Shown one piece after another: positions 3,501-8,400 of a DNA stretch of 64,000 bases (the first letter of the stretch is position 1; every line of letters starts with the position of its first letter). The stretch comes from Mytilus trossulus. Taxonomy: Eukaryota. A program made the translations under genes and the position numbers. The DNA lies in NCBI RefSeq assembly GCF_036588685.1, contig NC_086373.1, positions 34,410,001 through 34,474,000 of the forward strand, given 5' to 3'. The notes under the pieces are model-generated. The model searched no databases. It was not told the origin of the DNA and was given only the letters and a program-made list of their open reading frames with translations.

Positions 3501-5397
3501 AAGTTTGCAATTTTTAAGAAGAGTGTTAAGAATTTTTACACTTGTGTTCCTTTCCTTTTTTATTAAACTTAGAACTTTATCACTGTGAAACAATGTTATT
3601 ATAATAATTACAAATGTATTTCCTTAAGTTACAAGACTTGCTTCAAAAACATGATAGAGTATACATTGTACATGTCTATTTCCCTACCTGTGCATCTGTC
3701 TGATTTCTAAAGGCATCAAAGATCTTTTTGACTGCAACAACCTCACCGGTTCTCCTATCAATTGCTTTCCATACAATACCATATGCCTGTTAATATAAAC
3801 ATATATCATGTATATAATTATATAATGAACGCACACTAAAAAATAAAAGATGACACTACTGCCTGTGACCTATAGAGGTGGTAATGCATTTTAGTCCATC
3901 AGGCGTTCAACGGTAATTTTCATCTACTGTTAGTAGTGTCAAATTGGATAAAATTTTATCATGATTTGTTAAAATAATCTTATCGTGATTTGTCAGATGT
4001 CTCAAATAATTATTGTTACCGTTTGGGGAAAAAAATGGCGTGACTAGTCAAATTCAGCTGATTTTTTTATTGTCTAAAAGAAAAGTGTACATTTTATCAC
4101 CATGCACTTAAATTACCATTAACGTAATTTGTCCAGAATTTTTACCATTAAACATCACGAAGGCACCCCCATTACTACTCTCATTATAATTTCCCTATAC
4201 CTGGACCCAAATATTTAATACCAGGTAAACAAAAAGCGGGTTCGGCTTCAGAGTGATCTGTTTGCATTTTGGATCATGATCAAAAGTTAATATTTTTCCA
4301 AATTCATATGGGACTGGTCTGGGATCTCCTGTAGTTGGTGATCGCAATACTGGTATACCAGTATTGTGCACAATACTGGTATAAAAATTTTGTACCAGTA
4401 TTGTATTCCAGTATTGTACCAGTATTGTGTTTTTTTGTTTTTTTTTGTAAATAAACAATACATAGGTAATTAATCTTTTATTAAATGTGTCACATAATGC
4501 AATTAACATATGACATGACTATTATAAGGTATTTGAATAATTAGACATATATAGGTAATTAAGCACTAATTTAATTTTAAACATAATGATATTAAATACT
4601 GATATATATTATATATGATAATGTTCTTTTAGCACTAATAATAAAACAAAAGCATGATGTATAACAATTGTTAAATTCACATGTTTAAATGGTGATACAC
4701 TGCAATTGTCATCAATGAAAGCTTCAAGTCTTCTGTTGTTTTTGTTTTCATGTTACCATACTGTCCAAGTATTTCCACAAAGTCTTTATTTTCTTCTAAC
4801 TTTTCTTTAAGTTCTTTCTTGCCTAAACTCATGGTATACTTAAGTGAATTTTGTATGGACATTGCTGTGATTGCTGCTGTATCGTCAGCATTAGTGTCAT
4901 CAATTTCTTCAGCAGATGGAATTTCTGCCACCCTCCTCTTTCTGTATTCATATTCAGTCTCTGTGGACTTTCTCTTTCTCTTCACAACATGTCCAGCTTC
5001 CTCTGATGGTAATTGTACAGCCCTCTTACTGTCATAGGAGTTGGAGTGTTGACGCCATAGGATTGTGGCAGCATCTTTGGCCTTGGTTGTACTTTTAATT
5101 GTACCAGATGATATATCTTTTAGAAATTGTGAAGCCCATGATTCTGGATCATGTGCCTCACCCTTTGCCATACAGAATGCCAATTTTTTGTTTCTTGTCA
5201 CTTCATTTTTACTTAATATTTTCTTTGTAAGAAGAGTCTGTGATTAGCTTAAGAGGTCTAGTTATGGCACATATGTTGGCCTGGTCTAGTTGTTCTGTTG
5301 ACCAGTTCATGAAATAATTGTTGTTGTGTCTGGTTACAATGATGTGTACTCTGTCTAATACAGACATCTGCTTAGGAAAGTCTGGAAAAGGAGTGTA

Positions 5398-5434
<37 letters not shown>

Positions 5435-8400
5435 CTTTTTCTTAGGGCAAGAAAAGGGTGGGCTTATCTCGCCCCGTTAACACAAAGATATAACAGTTAA
5501 GGGTATTTAACAGGTTTGGGTTGGGCTCATATAGCCTTTATTTTATCTAATTTTCTCAATTTCAAATTGTTCTTCTTAGCCACTTCTTCGATGTTCAATT
5601 TACGTTCTTCTGAGTACAAGAAATTCTTCTTGTCTCGTACATCTAACCAGTGGTCATGACTTCTTTTGATGGCGCTGTAGAAAGTCGGATCTTTTTCTTT
5701 TTCTATCAGATTATAGGGGTACAGCTTATCTGAATAAACAAGGATAAAACTGTTTTCCTTTTCAACTTCGAACAGAAAGGTCTTTTGTGGGAGGTCGAGT
5801 GTTATCTTTCCTATCCTGTATCTTGTAGTTTTTTCGTGTTTTTCCGTTCCTGCATAACTTGCTGAAAGTTGACCCTCGGCACCTGTTGTGCAGGCGGGAT
5901 CCTCGTGTGGTTTACAGGATAGTGTTCTGTCATCATTGGGTACTGTGATTAACGGTTCTTCCTGTGTAATCATTTCCTCTGTATGTTGAGCGGTATTTTC
6001 TCCGTTCTCTTCGGTATTGTTGGTAAGCTCTACATCGGGGTCATTTTCTAGACATTTATTTTGAGCGGGTTCTCCATTCTCACTTGTCGTTGGTGTGGAC
6101 GTCGATGGTGCGGACTTCTTAGCTATATAAGCTTCTAGACGGCGTTTGTTCCTGTCTGATCTAGCTTTTGATGACCGTTTCCGTGTCTTTTGTACTGTAG
6201 GTGACTCGGTCTGCACTTCATGTTGTCTGGACTTTTTCCATCTTATTACTAGCTTGTAATCTCCATTCCTTGCTGAGAGGTCCCAGTTGGCGGTTTGATG
6301 TTCAAGTAAGTGTATAATGGTGAAGATATCTCCAGTCAACAACGAAGGTGAGCATGACTCACTGCTCGAGGTCATAACGATCCACCTCTGCCTGACATGT
6401 TTAACTATTTGTGGTGATTAGTTAAATAAGGAGTGTAATACCAGCCATATCAAAAGTGGTTAATGAGGATAGGCATGAATATTAGTTTATTTATTGTACT
6501 CTGATTTAATCTGTTGTAAAAACAGTAATTTTCATTGGTTGATAAAAAATAATTTAAGAATATACACAAGCTCTAATTAATCATGTTAATTGGATAAAAA
6601 ATAACCAAAAACATCTAATAAATTGGAAAGTAATTAAGAAATGACCTACACATTCATGGAGATAATAATTCCCTAAATAACATGATTAAGCTCATATTTC
6701 ATAGTTTACTGTAAAAGATAAATATATATAAATAAAGCAGAAAAACACATACATGTACATGTGTCATATTAACATTATTTTATTTATATCTATAATAATT
6801 TCATATTATATTATATATATAGTCATCTATCTTCTTACTTTATCAGATTATGAATATAAGATAATTTCAAAGATTAATGTTTTAAAAAAAAAATATACTC
6901 TAAAAATATGAAAGAGGTACTAGTATCATTAAAAGATGAGAAAAACACATAAATTATTAATATATGATTAACAATTGTTTGAATAATATAATTTAATTAC
7001 AATAATCTTTTGAAAATATTTGTATCTCTTTGATCTTAATTAGGGTATAAAGAAGCATGCTTATATTTAATGAGCTGTTGATTAATTTCAATTATCCTCT
7101 TTAATCTTTTTGAGTTCAGTTAATCCCTCTTTGATCTTTAATATTTAATTTTACTTAAAATTCCTTTATTTGTTTTATACTTTCAAAACACAAGCTCATC
7201 TGTGTCTTTAAGTACTGGTCAATGATAGAGTGGTTCATTGAATGTTAAACCTCTCACTTAGATATGGCTAGCTTCTTTACAGATCTTGCACCAAATGTTA
7301 TTTTTAACAGTGACCCTACAGCAGTTATTGACTTCATGAAAAGCCACAAACTATTAGCAGACTCATGTAATTGTACATGCTGTACCAAACCAATGGAGCT
7401 AGTTGCTAGACCAACAACATCAGATGGTTTTGGATGGAGATGCACCAACCAAAGATGTCAAAAACGCCACACATTCCGCACCATCCGTACAGGGTCCTTC
7501 TTTGAGAAATCCAAGGTCACTCTTACTAAATGGTTGTATGCTATATACTTATGGAGTCAAGAAAGCAAAGTAAATACAGTGGTAAAGCAAGTTGATATAG
7601 GTGAAAAAACTGTGATACAAATGTATCAGTACCTACGTGATGTCTGCTCCACAAAGCTTCTAAACACACCTATTGAACTTGGTGGACCTGGAGTGGTGGT
7701 CCAAATTGATGAGAGTCTATTCAACCACAAGTCCAAATACAACAGAGGTAGACGACCTAAGAAAGAATTATGGGTATTTGGCCTGGCTGACACATCATTC
7801 AAACCTGCCATTACTTACATGGAATTAGTAGAGAAGAGAGACGCAGCTACGTTATTACCCATTATTGAAAAGGCAGTGAAACCTGGTACCATTATATACT
7901 CAGACCAGTGGAAGGCTTACTGCAATATACAAAGAGATCTGAAACTACAGCATGCAACAGTCAACCATTCAGTGAATTTTGTTGACCCTGAAACAGGGGT
8001 GCACACACAAGCCATTGAATCGTACTGGGCTAAGGCCAAATATAAGTTCAAAGTAATGAAAGGTGTATCATCAGACCTTCTTCCAAACTATCTTGATGAA
8101 AGAATGTGGAGAGATCGTTGGGGCTCAAGTAAAGATAACATATTCACCAACATATTAGCCCATATTTCTGAACAGTATCCAGTGTAATTAGTTGACAAGT
8201 AGAAGTGAGATAGACAATACATTATCAGTATTTAGTGCTTTTATAATGAACAATTGTTATAGTCATGATAGTGCTCTAACTTTATCATATGTATTCTGGT
8301 CTGTTGATAGAAAAACATTTGAGACTGAACCGAAACTCTGATGGGGATTACAGACGTCAAAGTCACTGAAATCAAGTATCAACACATCGGGGCTCTCATT

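What the first reader, a model, noticed from the sequence alone, without database searches (positions are those of the whole stretch)
5388..6440. Young poly(A)-tailed retroelement that encodes a single non-RT protein
Seen in sequence: a perfect 13-bp TSD, a 34-nt pure A tail and an intact 282-aa ORF filling about 83% of a 1027-bp insert, with no RT, endonuclease or introns. The site in element orientation (GG|TATTAC) is not the TT|AAAA preferred by mammalian L1. The protein has a Trp-containing N-terminal segment, an Arg/Lys-rich helix and a C-terminal domain ending W-x-D-V-R. I recall this pattern from uncharacterised mollusc proteins, but that is unverified. Inference: a non-autonomous, ORF-only retrotransposon (HAL1-like logic) carrying its own RNA-binding protein and mobilised by a partner LINE, rather than an ordinary retrocopy.
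Basis: partly seen in the sequence, partly recalled or inferred. Interest (0 to 1): 0.72.

Follow-up and report, generated by a model that had tools for sequence, protein, structure and literature searches.

The report
Histone-headed mini-retroposon of mussels
This is a young copy of a small mussel jumping gene that encodes one protein of no known family and starts with the exact front end of histone H4 messenger RNA, likely because it and its helper LINE insert just behind histone start codons and are transcribed from the histone promoter.

Summary
In detail: 13-bp TSD, 34-A tail, 1027-bp insert, intact 282-aa ORF. It belongs to a dispersed family (28 loci, three subfamilies, different TSDs), not a retrocopy of a spliced gene. 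Of 22 copies reaching their 5' end, 13 carry a histone head (10 H4, 3 H2B), joined near the start codon. An autonomous L1/Tx1-group LINE carries the same heads; one copy sits behind a real H4 promoter, and one short copy has H4 sequence continuing after its poly(A). Three head versions recur across lineages, sorted by age, so heads are re-acquired. A sister LINE shares its 5' end with two subfamilies. The protein has two domains under purifying selection, no Pfam or fold match, and no detectable ORF1 homology, so it is not HAL1. Best model (0.6): histone-gene insertion and co-transcription; rival (0.28): template switching onto histone mRNA. Against the best model: 0 of 80 H4 genes in the donor array are occupied. 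No such system turned up in my paper searches; Repbase was not available.

The parts
6428..6440 (.). Target-site duplication, 5' side of the element
   Evidence: empty site in host-repeat paralogues
6385..6427 (-). Histone H4 head: 29 nt of 5' UTR plus coding bases +1 to +14, starting about 30 nt below the H4 TATA box; identical to 17 of 80 H4 genes of the C6 array and one base from most others
6372..6398 (-). Short upstream ORF (MSGRGGSL) begun by the captured H4 start codon; its stop overlaps the main start codon (AUGA)
   Evidence: any role in translation is inferred
5527..6375 (-). Intact 282-aa ORF of a mussel-type protein family with no known domain
6106..6345 (-). Conserved N-terminal region (aa 11-90): helix, beta-hairpin, then an Arg/Lys-rich helix
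5551..5820 (-). Conserved C-terminal domain (aa 186-275): four-stranded sheet plus two helices, W-x-D-x-R motif, pLDDT about 95
5537..5542 (-). AATAAA at the end of the ORF, at the same place in subfamilies A, B and C
5441..5526 (-). 3' UTR with conserved layout (G-rich/C-rich motif, TGTTATA, T run, second G-rich/C-rich motif); predicted terminal hairpin 5444-5475
   Evidence: z -2.7 for this copy; no compensatory double change in the alignment
5401..5440 (-). A tail: 34 pure A plus an A-rich proximal part
5388..5400 (.). Target-site duplication, 3' side
4677..5387 (-). Host sequence: decayed low-copy repeat of unknown class (87-89% to paralogues), interrupted by the insertion

Best explanation
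This is a young copy of a non-autonomous 1-kb retroposon family whose 5' end is the front of histone H4 mRNA; it is likely copied by an L1/Tx1-group LINE whose endonuclease probably favours the sequence around the histone H4 (and H2B) start codon, so that rare copies inside histone genes would be transcribed from the histone promoter and seed headed copies elsewhere. Shown: multi-copy family with TSDs and A tails; histone heads from the cap region to about the start codon; the same heads on an autonomous APE-RT LINE; one LINE copy directly behind an H4 promoter; one short copy followed by H4 sequence; heads tracking the array's sequence over time; purifying selection on two protein domains. 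Inferred: the cut site (about -9 to +7..+14 of H4), co-transcription, trans-mobilisation through the poly(A) tail, annealing of the head to the target on re-insertion (which would refresh the head and keep the old junction), and quick loss of in-array copies. Most likely role of the protein (inferred, about 0.5): a cis-acting RNP factor that binds its own RNA through the basic helix and helps it compete for the partner's ORF2, doing an ORF1-like job without ORF1 ancestry.
For: Family: 8 subfamily-A loci at 89-99%, 28 loci in three subfamilies with distinct TSDs. Heads: 13 of 22 copies that reach within 100 nt of the 5' end score above all 100 shuffles against eight histone 5' ends (10 H4, 3 H2B; L193 only just, 27 vs 26); 0 of 6 more truncated copies. 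Most H4 heads start at -30 to -32 and end at +7 to +14. LINE family F1 (ORF1 zf-CCHC, ORF2 APE-RT-zf): all 5 copies that reach the 5' end have an H4 head, 3 of them found by body search alone; the sixth (L144) follows 3 kb of a histone unit with H4 promoter and joins at +7. L193: new TSD, H4 head, element, A run, then 21 nt of H4 from -9 to +13, second A run, TSD = read-through from a source inserted in H4 sequence; the only hit of that pattern in the genome, control 0. L142 inserted at a site resembling the H4 UTR. At C2:57.10 Mb a sister LINE 3' end, H4-like pieces and a subfamily-C copy lie in tandem. Three head versions are shared by short elements and F1 and sort by age; the middle one has 6 exact matches, none in an array. 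Sister LINE L187 shares a 32-38 nt 5' end with subfamilies B and C (above all 60 shuffles); the motif has 13 genome hits, control 1: 7 short elements, 5 decayed relatives, that LINE. F1, F2, F3 form one RT clade (90/100). In run X2 one contig has the F2 tail inserted 2 nt from this copy's site in the host repeat. Same head junctions in other samples. Synonymous sites saturated (pS about 0.8) against pN 0.28-0.41 in both domains, linker near neutral.
Against: 0 of 80 H4 5' ends in the C6 array are interrupted (the array has assembly gaps) and none of 42 protein matches lies in either array, so no short-element source inside a histone gene was seen. No poly(A)-to-H4 junction appeared in 4 runs. 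L144 lacks its 3' end, so no TSD, and lies about 180 kb outside the C9 array. Dispersed TSDs show no clear H4-like consensus by eye; 5'-truncated LINE copies are scattered too. 9 of 22 copies reach the 5' end without a head, and L041 carries a 3' transduction from a non-histone source, so histone genes are not the only source. L193 could derive from insertion into the head of another dispersed copy. Subfamily A, the window's own, shows no significant 5' similarity to any LINE tested; 3' UTR similarity to the LINEs is weak (best p 0.01 of 9 tests, AT-rich). F2/F3 copies examined have no clear head. Expression rests on one guessed RNA run.
Confidence: 0.6

Rival explanations
1. [quoted passage not shown] The elements have their own internal promoter and no real preference for histone DNA.
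For: Many different junctions; 9 of 22 headless copies, several with a precise common 5' end; stacked heads in L002 and at C2:57.10 Mb; empty arrays; precedent for 5' additions in SINEU-2 (PMC4494074, sections 17-18) and R2 template jumps (PMC3414825, abstract). It also predicts heads that track the array.
Against: Does not explain H4 sequence after the poly(A) of L193, the H4 promoter upstream of L144, or the H4-like target of L142. Only H4 and C9-type H2B heads occur among eight histone 5' ends tested, and their start regions resemble each other, as a DNA target would. The subfamily-A junction stays at +14 in old and young copies and in three other samples.
Confidence: 0.28
2. A head was captured once in an ancestor (as MAST2 in SVA-F1) and inherited; it is a fixed part of the element and no histone targeting exists.
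For: Constant +14 junction in subfamily A.
Against: Young copies of three lineages (A, B, LINE F1) carry today's array sequence while older copies share earlier versions; H2B heads and different junctions occur in B and C; a copy in run X8 carries the array's other +9 variant.
Confidence: 0.05
3. Ordinary retrocopies of a host gene, or 5'-truncated LINEs with a third ORF, with chance chimeric ends.
For: A Mytilus coruscus gene model joins a subfamily-C N-terminus to a Tx1-like RT piece (P0032).
Against: All 42 protein matches fall in intronless poly(A) elements; the profile finds nothing in six-frame translations of the LINE loci and no longer protein (weak); full-length F1 has no such ORF.
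Confidence: 0.04

Closest known systems
SINEU of crocodilians with Tx1-Mar partner (Kojima 2015, PMC4494074; abstract, passages and sections 17-18 read)
   Same: Non-autonomous retroposon, head from a Pol II multicopy gene, heads added repeatedly with staggered junctions, Tx1 partner inferred from shared targets, possible transcription from flanking DNA.
   Different: Heads here come from protein-coding histone mRNA, not U1/U2 snRNA; the element is 1 kb and encodes a conserved protein.
Target-specific Tx1 LINEs such as Keno (U2) (passages in PMC4494074; target list in PMC8869645)
   Same: APE-type L1/Tx1-group LINE linked to a tandem multigene family.
   Different: The targets listed in those passages are rRNA, tRNA, snRNA, spliced leader, microsatellites, telomeres and transposons; 'histone' has 0 occurrences in either main text. 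Here most copies lie outside the arrays.
R2 and its non-autonomous SIDEs (PMC3414825, PMC3774820; abstracts read)
   Same: Co-transcription with the target gene, up to 36 nt of target sequence kept on the RNA and proposed to anneal at the target; short parasites sharing ends with the autonomous element.
   Different: R2 uses a different endonuclease type (recalled) and an HDV-like ribozyme, none found by Rfam here; SIDEs are deletion derivatives; occupancy of the array here is 0 of 80.
HAL1 (definition from PMC5753468 passage; the original paper was not held)
   Same: Non-autonomous, one ORF, poly(A), TSD, L1-group partner.
   Different: HAL1 encodes L1 ORF1p; this protein shows no homology to the partner ORF1.

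Membership tests
HAL1 | Non-autonomous, single ORF, no RT | tested here: met
HAL1 | The ORF is derived from LINE ORF1p | tested here: not met
   hhalign of the 21-sequence profile against F1 ORF1: probability 0.2; no hit in six-frame translations of F1, F2, F3 and other LINE loci; no zinc knuckle. Very remote ancestry cannot be excluded.
HAL1 | Ends derived from the parent LINE | tested here: inconclusive
   5' end of B and C shared with LINE L187; not for A; 3' similarity weak
Processed pseudogene of a host gene | A spliced parent gene exists and copies are dead ends | tested here: not met
   All 42 matches are intronless elements; six intact ORFs in three subfamilies with selection between them
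SINEU | Head from U1 or U2 snRNA | tested here: not met
   Head is histone mRNA; no Rfam match at gathering level
SINEU | Short (mostly under 500 bp), non-coding | tested here: not met
   1027 bp with a 282-aa ORF
SINEU | Recurrent 5' head addition with staggered junctions | tested here: met
Target-specific Tx1-group LINE (partner F1/F2) | ORF1 with zinc knuckle, ORF2 APE-RT | tested here: met
   (L142)
Target-specific Tx1-group LINE (partner F1/F2) | RT groups with named Tx1 references rather than L1 | not testable with these tools
'L1/Tx1 group' rests on domain layout.
Target-specific Tx1-group LINE (partner F1/F2) | Target sequence on both flanks of insertions, with TSD | tested here: inconclusive
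   Histone sequence 5' of 6 of 6 F1 copies examined, but true upstream promoter in 1; H4 on the 3' side in 1 short copy; 0 of 80 array genes occupied
Target-specific Tx1-group LINE (partner F1/F2) | Endonuclease cuts the target in vitro | not testable with these tools
   needs an assay
R2-type SIDE | 5' self-cleaving ribozyme | tested here: inconclusive
   No Rfam match; 5' regions fold no better than shuffles

The most novel reading that the evidence does not exclude
Mussels harbour a retrotransposon system that homes to protein-coding histone genes: a Tx1-like LINE clade cuts at the H4/H2B start codon, and a family of 1-kb satellites with their own new two-domain protein rides the same machinery, takes its promoter, cap region and start codon from the histone gene, and uses the captured head as a homing guide that is refreshed from the array, leaving a dated record of histone UTR turnover across the genome.
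Probability: 0.45. Interest if true: 0.85.

Novelty: new variant of a known kind. Interest (0 to 1): 0.74.

Why it matters
The target-specific non-LTR elements listed in the papers I read use RNA genes, simple repeats or other transposons. A system tied to Pol II histone genes would add a new class of safe harbour and give the element a strong, probably cell-cycle-timed promoter. The satellite's conserved protein is unrelated to ORF1 by the tests run, so it is a new candidate for how parasites of LINEs overcome cis preference. The heads also preserve extinct versions of the H4 5' UTR, a direct record of concerted evolution, and such elements explain a set of orphan, presence/absence-variable 'genes' in Mytilus annotations. 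Under the rival model it would still show systematic capture of histone mRNA 5' ends by a reverse transcriptase.

Tried and rejected
Structure: a first model from 8 sequences was unusable (pLDDT 36); the 21-sequence model gave no Foldseek match at E<=0.001 in PDB or BFVD and best Z 4.8 against single propeller blades, taken as no assignment; the N-terminal part was barely tested and an absent match shows no new fold. PDB sequence search, Pfam and ESM Atlas gave nothing usable. Complex prediction (homodimer of the N-terminal region) was not available, so oligomerisation is untested. A shared 3' tail: exact and degenerate hairpin patterns found no LINE; extra hits L123, L127-L129, L132, L133 looked unrelated. 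The I-group LINE in the C9 array was considered as partner and rejected: other target, other ends. An apparent fourth subfamily with a snoRNA-like 5' extension is a decayed relative inside another repeat, with no Rfam snoRNA match. Trans-splicing rejected: H4 has no donor GT at the junctions. Histone stem-loop at the 3' end: not present. Alignment-level covariation of the 3' hairpin: none. The empty-site joint in run X3 is one contig and may be a host-repeat paralogue. L146 gave no nucleotide hit and was dropped from the 29 loci given. The C9 array was not read whole; only H2B spacing and selected stretches. Paper searches: 1 paper, listing only; 0; 8; 0; 0; 5; 0; 0; none listed a histone-targeting retroposon. 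'Histone' had 0 main-text occurrences in PMC4494074, PMC5753468, PMC8869645, PMC10294476, PMC10886601, PMC4640811 (passages only; supplements and figures not seen and could bear on novelty). Repbase and Dfam could not be searched; I have an unverified recollection that some Repbase Tx1 entries may be annotated as histone-gene insertions. Earlier scan notes held nothing on this element.

Full report
Observation. The insert is as described: exact 13-bp TSD at 5388-5400 and 6428-6440, 34 pure A, 1027 bp, an intact 282-aa ORF on the minus strand and no RT or endonuclease. It interrupts a decayed low-copy repeat; three paralogues show the empty site. Named protein hits are all uncharacterised Mytilus proteins; unnamed relatives at 24-46% identity lie on 1-2 kb contigs, so the family may reach beyond Mytilus, which I could not determine.

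A transposon family. DNA search gave 8 close loci including this one. Protein search scored 53 of 53 candidates and gave 42 matches, all in intronless elements. I gave 29 loci to one script; 28 aligned, in subfamilies A (9), B (13), C (6), with different TSDs and A tails; L005 and L006 share flanks and are probably one insertion duplicated. Run X8 holds a whole A copy with 9 differences at another site. Six ORFs are intact. Between subfamilies synonymous sites are saturated (pS 0.74-0.88) while pN is 0.28-0.42 in aa 11-90 and 186-275; the linker is near neutral. So the protein matters to the element.

The head. The first 43 nt are identical to the H4 5' UTR and first 14 coding bases in a tandem array on C6, starting about 30 nt below the TATA box. 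Of 22 copies that reach within 100 nt of the body's 5' end, 13 carry a head (10 H4 of C6 type, 3 H2B from a second array on C9), none of 6 more truncated copies does. H4 junctions fall at +7 to +14, H2B junctions at -6 to +1. Nine copies have no head, several starting at the same body end. The captured start codon makes an 8-codon upstream ORF whose stop overlaps the main start.

Heads are re-acquired. Three versions occur. The present array sequence is on the young A copy (window), a young B copy (L039) and a young LINE (L142); a middle version is on older A and B copies and LINEs and has 6 exact matches, none in an array; an oldest version is on the most diverged copies. Independent lineages cannot have inherited this succession.

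The partner. Searching the middle head found an L1/Tx1-group LINE, F1; L142 is full length with zinc-knuckle ORF1 and APE-RT-zf ORF2. All five copies reaching the 5' end have H4 heads (two were found through the head, three through the body). The sixth, L144, follows 3 kb of a C9-type histone unit with the H4 promoter and joins at +7; its 3' end is lost. F1, F2 and F3 form one clade among 17 rows (90/100); three other L1/Tx1 loci showed no head (their 5' ends were not mapped). Full-length F2 copy L187 shares 32-38 nt of 5' end with B and C; that motif has 13 genome hits against 1 control, all short elements, decayed relatives or this LINE. Subfamily A lacks this similarity, and 3' similarity is weak. 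One contig of run X2 has the F2 tail 2 nt from the window's site in the host repeat. H4-to-A, H4-to-B and H4-to-F1 junctions recur in other samples, one a guessed RNA run.

Signs of DNA targeting. L193 reads: new TSD, H4 head, B element, A run, H4 from -9 to +13, A run, TSD. This is what read-through from a source inserted in H4 sequence would leave. L142 sits at an H4-like site, and an F2 3' end, H4 pieces and a C copy lie in tandem at C2:57.10 Mb. Against: 0 of 80 H4 5' ends in the C6 array are interrupted, no short copy lies in either array, no poly(A)-H4 junction appeared in 4 runs, and most TSDs are not H4-like. Specificity is therefore loose at best.

Protein. The model shows a helix-hairpin N-terminus, an Arg/Lys-rich helix (70-88), a disordered linker and a confident C-terminal alpha/beta domain. 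No Pfam, PDB, Atlas or fold assignment and no ORF1 homology. A cis-acting RNA-binding role is my inference from the basic helix, the conserved 3' UTR layout and selection; binding was not tested.

Mechanism. Best model (0.6): the LINE clade prefers the H4/H2B start region; rare, short-lived copies in histone genes are co-transcribed from the histone promoter; the headed, polyadenylated RNA is copied in trans, mostly to off-target sites such as this one, and re-insertion into H4 refreshes the head, as proposed for R2 RNAs that keep 28S sequence (PMC3774820, abstract). Rival (0.28): template switching onto histone mRNA during integration, as discussed for SINEU-2 (PMC4494074, sections 17-18) and R2 (PMC3414825, abstract). 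Both may operate.

Comparison and novelty. It works like SINEU with Tx1-Mar and like R2 with SIDEs, but fails membership in SINEU (head source, size, coding) and HAL1 (ORF origin; definition from PMC5753468 passage). My paper searches listed no histone-targeting retroposon, and the target list in PMC8869645 (passage) omits histone genes. Subscription papers, figures, supplements, Repbase and Dfam were not seen; Repbase holds 14 L1-Tx1 oyster families (PMC10294476, passage), so the partner clade may be catalogued. Verdict: real, a new variant of a known kind, interest 0.74.

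Noticed in passing
L119 (G000:C9:27755000-27764999); L087/L115: A 7.3-kb intact I-group LINE (APE-RT-RNase H) and, in another unit, a 35-bp piece with a related tail are both inserted at the same site at the H2A transcription start in the C9 array, with the same 9-bp TSD: a possible second histone-targeting system.
   Followed up: partly
window 7264-8187 +: Intact 307-aa ORF with an ISXO2/IS1595-like transposase domain.
   Followed up: no
G000:C6:33.644-34.100 Mb and C9:27.63-28.03 Mb: Two core-histone arrays (about 5.6-kb units, many inversions) with the same proteins but different UTRs; the C6 array has two H4 variants at +9 (17 and 63 of 80).
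   Followed up: partly
L191:3309-3485 -: An ORF in a MULE-like transposon weakly resembles the N-terminal domain (hhalign probability 52, E 1.5e-4): a possible origin of the domain.
   Followed up: partly
L041: A subfamily-B copy carries a 26-nt 3' transduction between two A runs, found in no other fetched locus.
   Followed up: partly
L263, L264, L267, L268, L269: A decayed relative (5' motif plus basic helix) has been carried along inside another repeat.
   Followed up: partly
L003: The flanks share a duplication much longer than a usual TSD.
   Followed up: no
L082 (G000:C9:7716432): Orphan H2B promoter and 5' fragment far from the array.
   Followed up: no
P0038, P0032: Public Mytilus gene models fuse this ORF with DDX23 or an RT fragment, probably annotation artefacts.
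   Followed up: no
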